DNA of 51,012 nt from Escherichia phage tonn. The position numbers were made by a program, and so were the translations under genes. Numbering within the stretch: position 1 is the first letter of the stretch; each line of letters begins with the position of its first letter. Shown piece by piece: positions 35,528 through 46,930 of the stretch. Location: sequence record NC_049815.1. One strand, 5' to 3'. The notes under the pieces are model-generated. The model was not told the origin of the DNA, ran no database searches, and was given only the letters and a program-made list of their open reading frames with translations.

Positions 35528-35555
35528 AATTAAAGGGGGCTATGCCCCCTTTTTT
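35527..35555. terminator. bidirectional rho-independent terminator
   Basis: GGGGGC-tat-GCCCCC flanked by A-rich and T6. Confidence 0.6.
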
Positions 35556-38500
35556 ACCAGCTTCCGGTAATCCTTCCGACTTCAACCCTCAATACTCCGT
35601 TTGCATCTTTTACCTTCAATCCCTCATTGGTGAATTTAGTAGCTCCTTCTCCTGGCGTTGATCCGTAATTCTCAAAGATTCCGTTTTTATCAAGCCTCCA
35701 TCCTTGCTGGTTTTGAACAAAGTTGTTTGACTGAATCACATTACCAATCATGGCATTAGTGATTGAACCGTTCTTCACCAAAAGACTATTAATGAAAACC
35801 TGATTATTCTCAACCACGAAAGGCAAAGTAAAAGTCCCTCCAGTAGAGCTAGTCATAATGGCGAACCTGTTAGCATCAAACAAAATTTGCGAGATAAGGC
35901 CGGATGAACCCTGCGAAAGCTGCATCACCATTCCTGCGCTGTATTGCTGGCCTTTGTAAGTAAGGCCAAGTTTCATAGCGTATTTAGCGCCAACTGAATC
36001 AACGCTCGCCCAAGAATCCAACTTTTCAACCAATGCAGATTCAACGTCGCCAAATCGTGCTGTTAATGCCTGGTCAGCCTGAACCCTTGCCTCTGTCTCA
36101 TTGGCGATCGCCTGTTTCACTTCTGAGATGTTAGCCTCGACTTCTGTTTTGATAACTCCGTCAAGGTCGTTTATCTCTTTCGTGAACTTAGCGTCAAGCT
36201 GCTGAACGGCCTGAGCGCGCGCTTCTGACTCGTTAGTGATTGTCTGCCTTACATCGCTAATGCTTGCAGAAGTATCCTTGCGCACGCCGTCGATTTCTTT
36301 TGTGAATTTAGAATCAAGCTGCTGAATTTGAGTCGCTCGCGTCTCTGATTCAGTGGCAATTGCCTCCTGCACTGTCTTGATGCTTGATGTTATCTCGCCA
36401 TCAATTGATGCCCTTAACTCTTCGATTTGAGTTACGCGCGCTTCTGTTTCATTGGCGATAAGCTCAAGAGCATGACCATATTCAGCCTTGCGCTTTCCGT
36501 TTTGCACTCGCGTCCACTTCACATCTGCATCATTTGCCAACGCGTTCTGTATGATTGATTGTGCCTGGTCTTTGATTTTATTGGCGCTGTCTATGGCGTT
36601 CTCTTTGATTTCTTGACCAGCTTCTGTATCAAAAATCTTGTCCAGAATGTCGCCCAAAACAGATTCAACATCATCTGACGCCATACCGCGAACAAAGTCA
36701 GTCCAACTGGAAACGTTGCCTATTCTGTCAACGCTGCGGATTCTATACCATACAACTTGCCCCGCTGGTAACGTGCTATGCCAATACTCATATTGAGGAT
36801 ATGGAATCAGCGTAAGCAGACTTGAGTTTTCAACCGTTCCGTCTGGCGATTGGTGAAGCTCAATGTAAGCCGTATCGCCTGATCCTTCCGGCATACCCCA
36901 TTTGACACGAATGCCAAAAACTTCATTATCAGAAGCCGTAAGATTAATCGGCGCTCCTGGCTCGCCAACTTTACCTGTCAGAGTGGCGGTTGCAATCTTT
37001 GACCACGGGGAAGCGTTACCGCTTGCAGAAACGGATCTCACCCTTACTTGGTAGTTGCCAGAGTAAATCCCTTCTACCTCTATCTCTTTGTTAGCGGTCT
37101 GCGGCGTATTCAGCCAGTTACCATCACCTTTTCGCCACTGCATTTCATAAAGCGATGCGTAAGGAACCTTATCCCATGAAACAACCATAGTCTCAACGCT
37201 AACACCCTGCACGACGCGAGAATAAGATGAGATCTTAACGTTCTCAGGCGCTGCCATCACGTCAGGCTGAACAATTGAAATCGGTCTGTCATCAATGTTT
37301 ACTCCATAATCAATCTCGTCGTATTTGTTCGGATCGTACTCTACAGCCGTGATTGAATAGGTAAACTCGTTTTCGTCATCACCCTTGCTGATGGTTGTCA
37401 CAACGTATTGCTGCAACGCAAGATCAGTACGGTCAATCGCAAAAACAGTATCAGGCTTAACATCAAAACCAAATCCAATATTTAACTCAATGGTTTTTCC
37501 GTCTGCGCTAACCTTTGAGATCGTGCGCTTAACTGGCTTGCCGTCCGGCTTGTTGATGATAATAAAATCACCAGGGCGAGCATCAACCTTAAACGGAACG
37601 AAAACCTGCAATCCTGAAACTTCCATCACTCGGCCCGATAGGTTTAACGTTAGGTTGCTGCTCTGAAAATTATCAGCGATAGCAATCACATCACCTATTG
37701 ATGGAATCATCCCCTCTAGTCCGGTAGCAAAGTTTACAGTAGTGCTTCTAAGGTTTGTTTTCAAAACCCACCGACCGCGACGATTCGCTTCGCTCCTGCG
37801 TGTACAACCGATCGCTGTAATGCTTGTTGGATTGTATCCAAATCGTAATGCAGCCTCAGTATCAAAAACCCCCTCTACGTCCTGCTGATACATGTTTTGT
37901 TCGTCGTCAAACGTCACGTTACACTGCGTGTACATGCTTTTTTCGCTTGCGTTTGTGTACTGAAAATCACCGTTGATGACGTTTTCATTAGTAAACACGT
38001 ATGATGGATCGCGCGGCTTATCAATCACGATTGATAAGCTCTCACCATTCCAAAAACTCATTCCGCGAAAGATTGAGCAAATGTCACGGATTAGCTGATA
38101 AGCCTCAACTTGATTCTGAATCACCACATCGCATAGGTAGCGAGGCTCTGTACCACCCTTGCCGTCTGGAACTTTCTGATCACAGTAAACGCCCGCCTCG
38201 TATAAGCTCCACTTGTCGATCTGTATTCCTAACTCTCGCTGATCAAGTCCGTAACGCTGATTTGTCACCAGATCATAAAGAACCCAAGCCGGATTATTTG
38301 ACCACGCTTTTTTAAAAGTCCCATCCCATGACCCGTGATATTCTCTTGATATTGGATCATAGTTGCTTGGCACATTAATAATCTTCCATTTCTTTTTTAT
38401 AGAAATGTTAGGGATTTGCGTAGGAAACAATTCGCTGTCAAATTCTACGAATACAAGGCCAGTCAGAGGATAACGGAATTTTGCATCAACAACCTCAGCG

Positions 38501-39132
38501 TAACTTTGCAGCTTGATTTTATCAGTCACCTTTGAAGATGTGCTGTCTGGAGTCAGTCGCTTTACTCGGATTAAAACGCGCTCATCAAACTTAGGAAGAT
38601 CAATCCTTCTGCTGCGGTCGTATCCTGATCTTGTCTTGCCGTCAATTACATCTCTCATAACCTCGCTATAAGAACCGCCATCAATAGCCATATCTACGGC
38701 ATACTCAACCCTTACGCCAACAAGATCGCCGTTATCCTCCTGTTTTATGCCAACTGGCATCAGAATCTTGATTCTTATTGCAGAAAGATTTTTGTTTGTC
38801 ACAGAGATAATATAGGGATTGTCTGTTGTAATGTCTCGCGAAACTGTCACCTCGCTTGATGTGTCAGTAAACCCCTGGATGTAATCTTGCGTCTGTGTGC
38901 CTGGTCTATATTCAGCCGTAACTCCCTCGTAGTTAACAGTGCCATCGCTGGCAATAACCGGAACATCATCAAGATAAAGATCGCGCAACGTGAAATCTGG
39001 ATCGCACTCGCCATCAGATACAGCCAGCAAAACTTTAATCTTGTTTATCGAGATCAGGTTATCTTCCATCTCTTTTGGCACGTATGGCTTTTTGCTTCCG
39101 CCCTTACTGCCGCTTATCATATATTTAGCCAT
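35554..39132 (-). CDS. tail tip / host specificity protein (lambda J-like)
   Basis: ~1192 aa from ATG 39132; last gene of M-L-K-I-J-type tail tip cluster. Confidence 0.85.
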   Translation of the reverse strand: MAKYMISGSKGGSKKPYVPKEMEDNLISINKIKVLLAVSDGECDPDFTLRDLYLDDVPVIASDGTVNYEGVTAEYRPGTQTQDYIQGFTDTSSEVTVSRDITTDNPYIISVTNKNLSAIRIKILMPVGIKQEDNGDLVGVRVEYAVDMAIDGGSYSEVMRDVIDGKTRSGYDRSRRIDLPKFDERVLIRVKRLTPDSTSSKVTDKIKLQSYAEVVDAKFRYPLTGLVFVEFDSELFPTQIPNISIKKKWKIINVPSNYDPISREYHGSWDGTFKKAWSNNPAWVLYDLVTNQRYGLDQRELGIQIDKWSLYEAGVYCDQKVPDGKGGTEPRYLCDVVIQNQVEAYQLIRDICSIFRGMSFWNGESLSIVIDKPRDPSYVFTNENVINGDFQYTNASEKSMYTQCNVTFDDEQNMYQQDVEGVFDTEAALRFGYNPTSITAIGCTRRSEANRRGRWVLKTNLRSTTVNFATGLEGMIPSIGDVIAIADNFQSSNLTLNLSGRVMEVSGLQVFVPFKVDARPGDFIIINKPDGKPVKRTISKVSADGKTIELNIGFGFDVKPDTVFAIDRTDLALQQYVVTTISKGDDENEFTYSITAVEYDPNKYDEIDYGVNIDDRPISIVQPDVMAAPENVKISSYSRVVQGVSVETMVVSWDKVPYASLYEMQWRKGDGNWLNTPQTANKEIEVEGIYSGNYQVRVRSVSASGNASPWSKIATATLTGKVGEPGAPINLTASDNEVFGIRVKWGMPEGSGDTAYIELHQSPDGTVENSSLLTLIPYPQYEYWHSTLPAGQVVWYRIRSVDRIGNVSSWTDFVRGMASDDVESVLGDILDKIFDTEAGQEIKENAIDSANKIKDQAQSIIQNALANDADVKWTRVQNGKRKAEYGHALELIANETEARVTQIEELRASIDGEITSSIKTVQEAIATESETRATQIQQLDSKFTKEIDGVRKDTSASISDVRQTITNESEARAQAVQQLDAKFTKEINDLDGVIKTEVEANISEVKQAIANETEARVQADQALTARFGDVESALVEKLDSWASVDSVGAKYAMKLGLTYKGQQYSAGMVMQLSQGSSGLISQILFDANRFAIMTSSTGGTFTLPFVVENNQVFINSLLVKNGSITNAMIGNVIQSNNFVQNQQGWRLDKNGIFENYGSTPGEGATKFTNEGLKVKDANGVLRVEVGRITGSW

Positions 39133-39424
39133 GACTTTTAACCTTTTGTGCTGTTTCTTGGTTTGCACATTATAAATGCACAAAAAAACCAGCGCAATGC
39201 TGGTTAAATCTACTTTCCGTGGTTTATGTGGAATTTGTTTAAAACTTCAATCTCTATCATCTTTTCTGCCGCTTCCTGCCTCACTTCCTTTCTTTATCCT
39301 TCTTCCTACGTCTACAGCCCAAAATAACTTACCGTCATTATAATAAAAAATATCACGCCACATGATCACATCCTTAATTAATTGTAAAGCGAAAATCCGT
39401 TTTCGCTTTAACATATTGTGCTAT

Positions 39425-40021
39425 TTATGCTTTGTCCTCTGCGTAGCTGCCAGCCGACCAGATCGCGCCGCCTACTGTCCTATATCCATATGGCAAAGGA
39501 ACCGGATAACCTGCCGCCGTGGTATTTACTGCGCCTCCGAAAGCGTAAGAAGGCTTATTTTCTGCTGATTGGCTTTGCAGTTTCATTCCGCCCTGCTGCG
39601 GCGAGATCATTTGCATGACACCGCCAAGCGCGATAGCACCACCCATCATAAATGCGGAAGATGCAAAAGCGCCCATAGCCGCCAGGCTTGCACCGCCAGT
39701 AATGAACGCAGTAGCCATAATTACAGCACCAAAAACAACATTGAACAGGCCGCCGGACTTAGAACCAGTTGGAACAGGAACTATTCGAACCTCTCGCGCG
39801 CACTTCCATGATTTTTCATCATGCTGACCAACGTTTTTTCCATCAACGAATACAGCGTACTTCATGCGCGATCCTACTTCGCTTTGCATGTAGTCTTTGA
39901 ACCCTTCAACCTGGGAAGATAACGCACGTATTGCTTCGGGGTATGAGTCAACCGCCATTTTGTGAAAGACGCCAAATCTACGCCCCAGTGAACCAGATAG
40001 CTTAATTACTTTCAATGTCAT
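39425..40021 (-). CDS. tail assembly protein (lambda I-like)
   Basis: 198 aa; Gly/Ala-rich hydrophobic C-terminal half; downstream of K-like gene. Confidence 0.7.
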   Translation of the reverse strand: MTLKVIKLSGSLGRRFGVFHKMAVDSYPEAIRALSSQVEGFKDYMQSEVGSRMKYAVFVDGKNVGQHDEKSWKCAREVRIVPVPTGSKSGGLFNVVFGAVIMATAFITGGASLAAMGAFASSAFMMGGAIALGGVMQMISPQQGGMKLQSQSAENKPSYAFGGAVNTTAAGYPVPLPYGYRTVGGAIWSAGSYAEDKA

Positions 40022-46029: not shown

Positions 46030-46464
46030 TTATTCCTCCTTTGTGTCAAGCCTAACACTGAAACGGATCGGTAAGAACCAACCTGTTTCACTTTTTAGTA
46101 ATGTGTGGACCTTTGCCCCATCGCTAATATAGCCAGTTTCAAACATTCTACCATCATAGAAAAATCTCGCAATCTCTTTAGCCAGCAAACGCGCTTTATC
46201 AGTGCCGCCGCCAGGAGGCATAACAATTCCAACCTGAACCAATCCGATATAAGAAACGCATTTTCTATCAAGAGATATGCGATCTGTGTCGGCTTCCATG
46301 TATTCAAATTTTAACCACATCGAACCATCACCAGGCGGAACAAAATCAACGTTTTCATAGGCGATCTTGAATCGTGATTCATATTCCGCCGCCAGCGCCT
46401 TACGCGCCGATAGCATTAATTCATAGTGACTCATGTTGAACTCCGTGATTTTTGTGGTATCCAA
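46030..46464 (-). CDS. tail terminator / tail completion protein (putative; start probably internal)
   Basis: position immediately upstream of major tail gene. Confidence 0.45.
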   Translation of the reverse strand: MDTTKITEFNMSHYELMLSARKALAAEYESRFKIAYENVDFVPPGDGSMWLKFEYMEADTDRISLDRKCVSYIGLVQVGIVMPPGGGTDKARLLAKEIARFFYDGRMFETGYISDGAKVHTLLKSETGWFLPIRFSVRLDTKEE

Positions 46465-46930
46465 AATTTAATTCTGCATCTTTTCTTGCTTTAGCAGCCT
46501 CATCAAAGCTAACAAAGAAACCTAAGTGCAACCTCTTTTTGTTGTGCATTATTTGAGCGTACCATTTCTTGTTTTTTCGATGATAGTAAACACCGGTAAC
46601 TCCGCTTGAGTTTCTTTTGTCGATTGTTTTGTTTCTCATGTTTCCAGATCTATCAACAATCCTTAGATTCTCAATTCTGTTGTCAGTTGTGTCGTGATTA
46701 ATATGGTCAATCTCCATGCCGTCAGGAATTGGCCCGTTGTGCATCTCCCAAACTATGCGATGAACCCTAAACTGACCGCCAAACATATTAACAACAACGT
46801 ATCCGCGATTATTTACATTTCCAGCTACGTCGCCAACAGAACAAGGATACTTACATTTTGACTGATCTTTAATCTGAATCTTCCAGTAAATAAGTCCATC
46901 TTTGTATGTGAATATATCATCATAGTGCAT
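46421..46930 (-). CDS. HNH homing endonuclease with AP2-like DNA-binding domain
   Basis: HNH block IDHINHDTTDNRIENLRIV...N, and YYHRKNKKWYAQI...LGFF AP2-like block; overlaps both neighbours. Confidence 0.8.
   Translation of the reverse strand: MHYDDIFTYKDGLIYWKIQIKDQSKCKYPCSVGDVAGNVNNRGYVVVNMFGGQFRVHRIVWEMHNGPIPDGMEIDHINHDTTDNRIENLRIVDRSGNMRNKTIDKRNSSGVTGVYYHRKNKKWYAQIMHNKKRLHLGFFVSFDEAAKARKDAELNFGYHKNHGVQHESL

What the first reader, a model, noticed from the sequence alone, without database searches (positions are those of the whole stretch)
39184..39424. Unusual 240-bp noncoding spacer between tail genes I and J
In lambda-like tail clusters I and J are adjacent, but here they are separated by ~240 bp containing a hairpin right after the I stop (AAAGCGAAAA-n4-TTTTCGCTTT at 39385..39410), a ~60-nt polypyrimidine tract on the + strand (polypurine on the coding strand, 39243..39300), a terminator-like hairpin AACCAGC-n5-GCTGGTT plus T-run (39187..39205), and a TTTATAAT promoter-like element before J. 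It may give J independent transcription or encode a small RNA.
Basis: seen in the sequence. Interest (0 to 1): 0.35.

Follow-up and report, generated by a model that had tools for sequence, protein, structure and literature searches.

The report
Decayed homing endonuclease gene between tail genes
The extra DNA between tail genes I and J is the leftover of a selfish HNH homing-endonuclease gene that lost its catalytic core in a 323-bp deletion, which is an ordinary stage in the life of such elements rather than a new regulatory spacer or small RNA.

Summary
The window is a Warwickvirus (T1-like, Drexlerviridae) phage that matches Escherichia phage ityhuna at 3799 of 3801 bases around this locus.

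Close relatives show three states at the I-J junction:
- Empty: a 78-nt spacer.
- Occupied: an intact 158-aa HNH endonuclease gene (Pfam HNH_3, E 1e-15), found in 8 phages.
- Deleted: the same cassette lacking 323 internal bp, found in this window and in ityhuna.

The deletion lies between imperfect repeats CAGGA(A/T)GCG, shifts the reading frame and removes residues 32-139, including the whole HNH domain. What remains is:
- the cassette's 5'-UTR hairpin;
- a 38-codon stub, which matches phrog_99 (HNH endonuclease) at E 6.7e-5;
- the purine-rich gene ends, which form the "polypurine tract";
- the last 22 codons, now out of frame.

The terminator hairpin and the TATAAT are not part of the extra DNA. 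All 41 diverse Drexlerviridae I-J junctions examined carry a hairpin plus T-run followed by a -10-like hexamer. Independent transcription of J is therefore plausible, but it is ancestral and unrelated to the spacer.

There is no support for a small RNA.

The element is ordinary: low interest, a new member of a known kind.

The parts
39425..40021 (-). Tail assembly gene I (198 aa). Its last codons carry the two synonymous variants (GAG GAC instead of GAA GAT, at 39437 and 39434) that are strictly linked to cassette occupancy.
   Evidence: Pfam Lambda_tail_I 9.2e-21. Fixed differences at -13 and -10 from the end of the stop codon.
39206..39423 (-). Remnant of a free-standing HNH homing-endonuclease cassette: about 218 nt here against about 541 nt in the intact allele. 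It is inserted between the I stop codon and the ancestral terminator.
   Evidence: Three-state alignment of empty, intact and deleted alleles. Query spans of 587, 1124 and 801 nt. Deletion geometry.
39385..39410 (-). Cassette-borne hairpin (10-11 bp stem, 4-nt loop) in the 5' UTR of the endonuclease gene, 9 nt upstream of its Shine-Dalgarno sequence. It is absent from empty sites.
   Evidence: -11.4 kcal/mol, z -3.8. Unique in the window. 100% identical in all intact copies, so there is no covariation information.
39367..39375 (-). Shine-Dalgarno-like AAGGATGTG. Most intact copies have AAGGAGGTG. The G>T at 39370 is shared with the intact mar001J1 allele.
39247..39363 (-). Truncated endonuclease ORF of 38 codons plus stop. 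Codons 1-31 are native N-terminus. Codons 32-38 (GRKDDRD) are out of frame after the deletion.
   Evidence: tblastn of the intact protein against the window. phrog_99 HNH endonuclease E 6.7e-5. Annotated as hypothetical protein ityhuna_47.
39270..39272 (-). Deletion junction. A 3-nt GCG microhomology sits inside the imperfect 9-nt direct repeat CAGGA(A/T)GCG. 323 bp are missing, covering residues 32-139 and the whole HNH_3 domain.
   Evidence: The HNH_3 domain maps to residues 51-95 of the intact protein.
39210..39278 (-). Last 22 codons and TAG stop of the endonuclease gene, now in a different frame from the N-terminal stub. There is one substitution, G>T at 39259.
   Evidence: tblastn residues 137-158, 91% identity..
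39243..39321 (-). Purine-rich tract on the coding strand. It is the Lys/Arg/Gly/Glu-rich coding sequence on both sides of the deletion, brought together by it.
   Evidence: Up to 86% pyrimidine on the + strand, the most extreme stretch in the window. Alignment.
39182..39205 (-). Intrinsic-terminator-like hairpin (7 bp, loop 5) plus T-run. It is homologous to the terminator that follows I directly in empty-site phages. Here it carries the cassette-linked compensatory stem variant (CCAGC/GCTGG instead of CCCGC/GCGGG).
   Evidence: Terminators are annotated at this site in phages Sip, Sazh and Sushi.
39169..39197 (-). Promoter-like arrangement overlapping the terminator: TTGCGC (39197..39192, hairpin loop and 3' arm), a 17-nt spacer containing the T-run, then TATAAT (39174..39169). 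It is ancestral to the junction, not part of the insert.
   Evidence: Sequence. TA[TC]A[AC]T present in 41 of 41 junctions and TTGCGC at 17-nt spacing in 31 of 41. The sigma-70 scan does not call it, because the -35 matches only 3 of 6.
35554..39132 (-). Tail tip / host specificity gene J (1192 aa), starting at the ATG at 39132.
   Evidence: Pfam FNIII-A_GpJ, Phage-tail_3 and Phage_Tail_Tip. Start as annotated in ityhuna and relatives and conserved across genera.

Best explanation
The extra DNA between I and J is a dead copy of a free-standing HNH homing-endonuclease gene (HEG).

**Origin (shown by comparison).** An ancestor of this phage acquired a cassette of about 540 nt. The cassette comprised a 5'-UTR hairpin, a Shine-Dalgarno sequence and a 158-codon HNH gene. 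It was inserted between the I stop codon and the terminator that normally follows I.

**Decay (shown by comparison; mechanism inferred).** A 323-bp deletion later removed codons 32-139, including the entire HNH catalytic domain, and shifted the frame. The deletion lies between imperfect direct repeats CAGGA(A/T)GCG. The likely mechanism is replication slippage or microhomology-mediated recombination.

**What is left.**
- the hairpin;
- a 38-codon stub;
- the out-of-frame last 22 codons;
- purine-rich coding sequence, which accounts for the polypurine tract.

**Present function (inferred).** The remnant can no longer cut DNA or home and is most likely inert. As a passive consequence, it probably still protects the site from the intact endonuclease of co-infecting relatives. 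The insertion and the linked point variants in the last codons of I and in the terminator stem are retained.

**Terminator and TATAAT.** These belong to the ancestral I-J junction. They most likely act as a terminator or attenuator after the I transcript, with an overlapping weak promoter for J. This function is inferred from sequence conservation only.
For: **Three allelic states in otherwise collinear relatives of 96-99% identity.**
- Empty: the match spans 584-588 nt in all 27 further listed records.
- Intact HEG: 1124 nt, in 12 records representing 8 phages.
- Deleted: 801 nt, in this window and ityhuna.

**The intact gene is an HNH endonuclease.** Pfam HNH_3 scores 57.5 bits against a cutoff of 24.8, over residues 51-95. 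phrog_99 gives 4e-49. Full-length homologs occur in 1230 phage records, and an intact paralog lies in this window at 46930..46442. The long form is therefore ancestral and the window's form is the derived deletion.

**The remnant matches the intact gene.**
- Residues 1-31 are identical and residues 137-158 are 91% identical, in two different frames.
- The junction has 3-nt microhomology inside an 8/9 repeat, and 323 is not a multiple of 3.
- The 38-aa stub on its own hits phrog_99 at 6.7e-5.

**Signatures of mobility.**
- Cassette divergence among the 8 intact copies is 0.22%, against 2.93% in their flanks.
- Of 331 variable flank columns, only 4 segregate with occupancy, and all 4 lie within 13 nt of the insertion site or in the adjacent terminator.
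- These linked markers were never found without the cassette.
- A different HNH gene (39% identity) occupies the same junction on the opposite strand in another lineage.

**The deletion is real.** The window and ityhuna differ by 1.1% over 16 kb elsewhere but share the identical junction.

**The terminator and -10 module is ancestral.** It is present in 41 of 41 junctions, with 18 stem variants.

**Precedent.** T4 I-TevIII carries an inactivating internal deletion (PMC2790892).
Against: - No experiment shows that the intact protein cleaves or nicks the empty junction, so homing is inferred from population patterns.
- The stub ORF keeps a start codon and a partial Shine-Dalgarno sequence, so a 38-aa peptide could still be made.
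- Only two genomes carry the deletion, and probably both come from one study. No selection test is possible.
- The roles of the 5'-UTR hairpin and of the terminator/-10 module are untested.
- The low divergence of the cassette could partly reflect recent common ancestry of that segment through ordinary recombination rather than endonuclease-driven homing.
Confidence: 0.88

Rival explanations
1. The spacer is a purpose-built regulatory region. It would uncouple J transcription from I (terminator plus promoter) or encode a small RNA.
For: - A terminator-like hairpin plus T-run is present.
- A perfect TATAAT lies 7 nt after the T-run, with TTGCGC at 17-nt spacing.
- The module is conserved across genera.
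- It resembles experimentally described promoter-coupled terminators (bioRxiv 10.64898/2026.08.19.745784).
Against: - The module sits in the 78-nt junction of phages that lack the extra DNA, so the 214 extra nucleotides add nothing to it.
- There is no Rfam family match: the best is RyhB at 19.3 bits against a gathering score of 55, E 0.73.
- The whole spacer folds no better than shuffles, z 0.00.
- The extra DNA is explained base for base by the HEG cassette.
Confidence: 0.04
2. The remnant is retained because it is useful. Either the 38-aa N-terminal stub is a functional micro-protein, for example a DNA-binding decoy. Or the truncated cassette is selected as an immunity allele that blocks cleavage and gene conversion by HEG+ relatives without the cost of a nuclease.
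For: - The stub keeps its ATG and an AAGGATGTG Shine-Dalgarno-like sequence that also occurs in an intact allele.
- All occupancy-linked target-site variants are retained.
- The allele is shared by two phages that differ by 1.1% elsewhere.
Against: - The allele is seen in only two genomes. The exact ORF is on record only in ityhuna, and the junction is absent from IMG/VR.
- The tail of the stub is frameshifted.
- The stub has no family match other than the parent HNH family.
- Target-site protection would be a passive by-product of any insertion and does not need selection.
Confidence: 0.06
3. The shortened cassette is an assembly or cloning artefact, caused by collapse between short repeats in a purine-rich region, and the phage really carries the intact gene.
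For: - The deletion lies between near-identical 9-mers in low-complexity purine-rich sequence.
- Both carriers probably come from the same sequencing study. The window length of 51,012 equals that listed for phage tonn in PMC7552041.
Against: - Two distinct genomes, 98.9% identical over 16 kb elsewhere, carry exactly the same junction and the same private substitution at 39259.
- A 9-nt imperfect repeat is far too short to collapse a short-read assembly.
Confidence: 0.02

Closest known systems
T4 I-TevIII, a defunct HNH homing endonuclease with an inactivating internal deletion (full-length version in phage RB3)
   Same: - It is an HNH-type phage homing-endonuclease gene inactivated by an internal deletion.
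- It persists in the genome while intact versions circulate in relatives (PMC2790892).
   Different: - I-TevIII lies inside a group I intron in nrdB and is mobilised in trans by MobE.
- The element here is free-standing in an intergenic region, with no intron and no evidence of a helper.
- There is no detectable sequence relationship beyond the HNH superfamily. The HNH part is missing here, so this could not be tested directly.
Free-standing HNH homing endonucleases of phages (for example T4 mobE; Pfam HNH_3 / phrog_99 family)
   Same: - The intact allele in relatives is a small HNH_3 protein inserted in an intergenic region between conserved genes.
- It shows presence/absence polymorphism at a fixed site.
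- Linked point variants lie next to the insertion.
- The cassette is far less diverged than its flanks.
- Like mobE, it appears promoterless, has a hairpin near its 5' end, and relies on the host operon's signals (for mobE).
   Different: - The window's copy lacks the HNH domain, so it is not a functional member.
- Nicking or cleavage and homing have not been shown for this subfamily.
- The nearest other homologs are at most 47% identical and sit at other loci.
Cyclical model of homing-endonuclease gain, degeneration and loss (Goddard and Burt, from own knowledge)
   Same: Empty, intact and degenerate alleles of one site coexist in a closely related population, exactly as the model predicts.
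   Different: - No precise-loss allele (an empty site carrying cassette-type flank markers) was found.
- The model was formulated for intron and intein HEGs in eukaryotic organelles, not for free-standing phage HEGs.
Promoter-coupled terminators (Fletcher et al., bioRxiv 10.64898/2026.08.19.745784)
   Same: The ancestral I-J junction has a stem-loop whose DNA supplies a -35-like TTGCGC. The T-tract lies in the spacer, and a -10 hexamer follows immediately downstream. This is the described architecture.
   Different: - This concerns only the ancestral module (39169..39205), not the extra spacer.
- No TSS or TTS mapping exists for these phages.
- The -35 matches only 3 of 6, and the generic scan does not call a promoter.

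Membership tests
HNH_3 homing endonuclease (PF13392 / phrog_99): functional member | Presence of the HNH catalytic domain (the His/Asn motif DHxxHN...N) | tested here: not met
   In the intact allele, HNH_3 covers residues 51-95. The window lacks residues 32-139. Pfam finds no domain in the 38-aa stub.
HNH_3 homing endonuclease (PF13392 / phrog_99): gene remnant by descent | Sequence homology of the surviving parts to a bona fide family member | tested here: met
   The nucleotide alignment to the intact cassette has 2 substitutions in the 231 retained cassette nt outside the deletion. Residues 1-31 are 100% and residues 137-158 are 91% identical. The stub hits phrog_99 at E 6.7e-5.
Mobile (homing) genetic element | Presence/absence polymorphism at an identical site in collinear genomes, with the element less diverged than its flanks | tested here: met
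   Empty, intact and deleted alleles are aligned. Cassette divergence is 0.22% against 2.93% in the flanks. Occupancy-linked variants are confined to within 13 nt upstream and to the adjacent hairpin.
Mobile (homing) genetic element | Endonuclease cuts or nicks the empty allele, and the element is inherited at super-Mendelian frequency in mixed infection | not testable with these tools
   This requires purified protein and phage crosses.
Rho-independent (intrinsic) terminator | G+C-rich stem-loop immediately followed by a U-run, with the stem maintained by compensatory changes in relatives | tested here: met
   Hairpin at 39205..39187 plus T-run, -12.6 kcal/mol. 41 of 41 related junctions have such a hairpin, with 18 different stem sequences (folds). 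Termination itself is untested.
Promoter-coupled terminator | A -10 element just downstream of the T-tract, with a -35 in the stem-loop DNA, and mapped TTS and TSS within about 35 bp | tested here: inconclusive
   Sequence layout met: TTGCGC-17 nt-TATAAT, conserved in 31 to 41 of 41 junctions. RNA ends are not available, and the generic promoter scan is negative.
Known small RNA or cis-regulatory RNA family (Rfam 15) | Covariance-model match at or above the gathering score | tested here: not met
   The only match is RyhB at 19.3 bits against 55, E 0.73, and it overlaps the terminator hairpin.

The most novel reading that the evidence does not exclude
The truncated cassette may be a selected 'disarmed' allele rather than junk. 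It would keep the cassette ends and the linked target-site variants, so the phage resists cleavage and gene conversion by HEG+ relatives without paying for an active nuclease. The J-proximal terminator-promoter module would stay intact. Possibly a 38-aa N-terminal peptide that interferes with the intact enzyme is still produced.
Probability: 0.08. Interest if true: 0.4.

Novelty: new member of a known kind. Interest (0 to 1): 0.15.

Why it matters
Mainly for annotation and interpretation.

- ORF ityhuna_47 and its equivalent here should be labelled an HNH endonuclease pseudogene fragment, not a hypothetical protein or a regulatory spacer.
- The locus is a tidy natural snapshot of the homing-endonuclease life cycle. 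Empty, intact and decayed alleles occur in phages more than 96% identical. This could serve as a simple system to test homing and target-site immunity in T1-like phages.
- It shows that the I-J junction of Drexlerviridae is a recurrent landing site for such elements.
- The conserved terminator-plus-promoter-like module before J is the more general point for phage gene regulation. It is independent of this finding.

Tried and rejected
- **Rfam scan of 38900..39700 at a permissive E-value.** Only a sub-threshold RyhB hit on the terminator hairpin. The sRNA idea was dropped.
- **Fold of the whole 292-nt spacer.** z 0.00 against shuffles, so there is no global structure.
- **My first guess that 'FHINHGK' was the remnant of the HNH motif was wrong.** It is the native C-terminus, and the HNH_3 domain lies wholly in the deleted part.
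- **I also suspected a C-terminal AP2 domain.** Pfam does not report it for the intact I-J protein. Only the window's paralog has a weak sub-threshold AP2 hit (23 bits against 33.3). It is not claimed.
- **Exact searches in IMG/VR.** The deletion junction, the intact junction and the cassette-linked flank markers all gave no hits.
- **One metagenome scan.** It found a single contig with the intact cassette.
- **Phage P817 homolog.** It looked as though it might sit at I-J, but it lies in the lysis cassette.
- **Accession MN850596 (phage tonn).** Its listed length of 51,012 bp equals the window length. It is not in the collection, so the window's identity as tonn remains an inference.
- **PDB sequence search and NCBIfam.** No hits for the intact protein.
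- **The 55-aa upstream-ATG version of the ORF.** It is not on record and has no Shine-Dalgarno sequence. The start at 39363 is preferred.
- **Literature.** Nothing specific on this locus.
- **Formal pair counting on alignment A2.** Not done. The hairpins of different genera are out of register in the MAFFT alignment. Per-locus hairpin detection was used instead.

Full report
**1. The observation**

The tail genes lie on the minus strand.

- I (Pfam Lambda_tail_I) ends with TAA at 39427..39425.
- J (FNIII-A_GpJ, Phage-tail_3, Phage_Tail_Tip) follows it.

- The 10-11-bp hairpin lies at 39410..39385. It is unique in the window, at -11.4 kcal/mol, z -3.8.
- A purine-rich coding-strand tract spans 39243..39321. 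It is the most extreme 58-nt purine/pyrimidine bias in the whole 51-kb window.
- A terminator-like hairpin plus T-run lies at 39205..39182.
- TTTATAAT lies at 39176..39169.

The gap is larger than stated. J most probably begins at the ATG at 39132. That ATG is the annotated start in the nearly identical phage, and it is conserved across genera together with its leader. The spacer is therefore 292 nt.

**2. What the window is**

The region 38900..39700 is 99.9% identical to Escherichia phage ityhuna (Drexlerviridae, Tempevirinae, Warwickvirus). There are 2 mismatches in the 3801 nt around the locus.

Elsewhere the two genomes differ by 1.1% over 16 kb, so they are distinct phages.

The window length of 51,012 bp equals that listed for phage tonn from the same Danish wastewater study (PMC7552041). 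That record is not in the searchable collection, so this identification is only an inference.

**3. Three states of the I-J junction**

Close relatives (96-99% identity) fall into three classes.

- Most have an empty junction, with 78 nt from the I stop to the J ATG.
- Twelve records, representing eight phages, carry an annotated HNH endonuclease gene there. The phages are Phunderstruck, atuna, orkinos, mar001J1, Kalemo, JLBYU01, JLBYU10 and brachmannus.
- The window and ityhuna carry an intermediate form.

The nucleotide alignment shows that the window's spacer is that same cassette minus 323 internal base pairs.

The intact protein has these properties:

- It is 158 aa from the ATG that follows a perfect AAGGAGGTG Shine-Dalgarno sequence.
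- Pfam HNH_3 hits it above threshold over residues 51-95.
- It matches phrog_99 'HNH endonuclease' at 4e-49.
- Full-length homologs occur in 1230 phage records.
- One is an intact 36.6%-identical paralog in this very window, at 46930..46442.

The long form is therefore ancestral and the window's form is the deletion derivative.

**4. Anatomy of the remnant**

The deletion joins ...GAGGCAGGAAGCG to GCAGAAAAG... It lies between imperfect direct repeats CAGGA(A/T)GCG, with 3 nt of exact microhomology (GCG, 39272..39270).

Because 323 is not a multiple of three, the reading frame shifts. What remains:

- The ORF from 39363 encodes 31 native residues, then GRKDDRD and a stop at 39247.
- The last 22 native codons and the TAG stop (39278..39210) survive in another frame.
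- The entire catalytic domain is gone.

The 38-aa stub by itself still matches phrog_99 at E 6.7e-5. In ityhuna it is annotated only as a hypothetical protein.

The polypurine tract is the Lys/Arg/Gly/Glu-rich coding sequence on both sides of the deletion, brought together by it.

The hairpin right after the I stop is part of the cassette. It lies in the 5' UTR, 9 nt upstream of the Shine-Dalgarno sequence, and is absent from empty sites.

Two substitutions distinguish the remnant from most intact copies.

- The one in the Shine-Dalgarno sequence (39370) is shared with the intact mar001J1 allele.
- Only 39259 is private.

**5. Evidence that the cassette is a mobile homing element**

This evidence is population-level. 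No biochemistry was done.

- Among the eight intact copies the cassette differs by 0.22% on average, while their 3.6 kb of flanks differ by 2.93%.
- Of 331 variable flank columns in 18 genomes, only four segregate perfectly with occupancy.
  - Two are synonymous changes 13 and 10 nt before the end of I (GAG GAC against GAA GAT).
  - Two are in the terminator hairpin, a loop base and a 3'-stem base. The 5'-stem partner of the latter lies outside the compared flanks and also differs, so the stem change is compensatory (ACCAGC-ATTGC-GCTGGT against ACCCGC-CTTGC-GCGGGT).
- Other polymorphisms are freely shuffled between occupied and empty genomes.
- The linked markers were never found without the cassette.
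- In another Drexlerviridae lineage (IMG/VR loci L045 and L046), a different HNH gene occupies the same junction on the opposite strand. It is 167 aa and 39% identical. The site is therefore a recurrent landing place.

These are the classical signatures of a free-standing homing endonuclease and its protected target site.

An inactivating internal deletion of a phage HNH homing endonuclease has a textbook precedent in T4 I-TevIII (PMC2790892).

**6. The terminator and TTTATAAT**

These belong to the ancestral junction, not to the extra DNA.

I extracted the I-J junction from 44 IMG/VR loci that encode an I homolog.

- Of the 44, two carry the other HNH gene.
- One very distant locus was left out of the motif count.
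- In 40 of the remaining 41 the gap is 74-83 nt. The one outlier is locus L029, with an inferred gap of 109 nt.

All 41 junctions have a G+C-rich hairpin plus T-run directly after the I stop, with 18 different stem sequences. All 41 also have a -10-like hexamer just downstream:

| Hexamer | Junctions |
|---|---|
| TATAAT | 29 |
| TACAAT | 10 |
| TATACT | 2 |

TTGCGC lies in the hairpin loop and 3' arm at 17-nt spacing in 31 of the 41.

Terminators are annotated at this position in phages Sip, Sazh and Sushi.

The layout matches the 'promoter-coupled terminator' architecture recently described experimentally in bacteria (bioRxiv 10.64898/2026.08.19.745784).

Some transcriptional punctuation before J is therefore plausible. 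It is a family-wide property, and it is untested. The generic sigma-70 scan does not call a promoter here, because the -35 matches only 3 of 6.

**7. Rival readings**

- **Small RNA or structured regulatory spacer.** Not supported. There is no Rfam family match, and the spacer folds no better than shuffles.
- **Assembly artefact.** Unlikely. Two distinct genomes share the identical junction and the private substitution.
- **A functional micro-protein or a selected immunity allele.** Cannot be excluded, but nothing positive supports it. The allele is rare, with the exact ORF on record only in ityhuna.

**8. Verdict**

The finding is real as a sequence observation, but its explanation is ordinary. 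It is a decaying free-standing HNH homing-endonuclease gene sitting upstream of a conserved terminator and -10 module. It is a new, previously unlabelled member of a well-known kind. Interest is low (0.15).

The mechanism of deletion, the inertness of the remnant, its probable passive protection of the target site, and the function of the terminator/promoter-like module are inferences. The allelic series, the deletion geometry and the domain loss are shown directly by the sequence comparisons.

Noticed in passing
window 39169..39205 (- strand); related loci L003, L019-L023, L025-L067: The I-J junction of Drexlerviridae carries a conserved terminator hairpin plus T-run, followed within a few nt by TATAAT, TACAAT or TATACT. 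TTGCGC lies in the hairpin at 17-nt spacing. The hairpin and hexamer are present in 41 of 41 junctions, with 18 stem variants. This matches the recently described promoter-coupled terminator layout and suggests J is transcriptionally set apart from the upstream tail genes across the family.
   Followed up: partly
L045 2106..2609 (- strand in locus) and L046, IMG/VR contigs 3300045988_066863 and 2149837016_000013: A different 167-aa HNH endonuclease gene (39% identical to the Warwickvirus one) sits in the same I-J junction in the opposite orientation. It lies after the terminator and displaces the -10-like element. This is an independent invasion of the same site.
   Followed up: partly
window 46442..46930 (- strand): An intact paralogous HNH endonuclease gene (162 aa; Pfam HNH_3 4.6e-22; weak sub-threshold AP2 hit). 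It is 36.6% identical to the intact I-J endonuclease. The phage therefore still carries at least one apparently intact homing-endonuclease gene of this family.
   Followed up: partly
window 39379..39386 (- strand), just after the cassette hairpin: A TACAAT hexamer overlaps the 3' end of the cassette's 5'-UTR hairpin (CGCTT-TACAAT-TAATTAAGGA). This superficially mimics the hairpin-plus-minus-10 layout of the ancestral junction. No credible -35 is present, and the leader would be very short.
   Followed up: no
whole window (length 51012): The window length equals the genome length listed for Escherichia phage tonn (MN850596) in Olsen et al. 2020 (PMC7552041). That accession is absent from the searchable collection. 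The first 25 kb are closest to phages KMB46 and swan01 (99.0% and 98.9%), while the tail region is nearly identical to ityhuna. This suggests a mosaic relationship among these Warwickviruses.
   Followed up: partly
L029 (IMG/VR 2974632794_000001), I-J junction: This Hanrivervirus-like contig has a shortened T-run and a different sequence in place of the usual J start. The inferred gap is 109 nt, with a non-ATG start by homology. This may be a local rearrangement or a sequencing error at the J 5' end.
   Followed up: no
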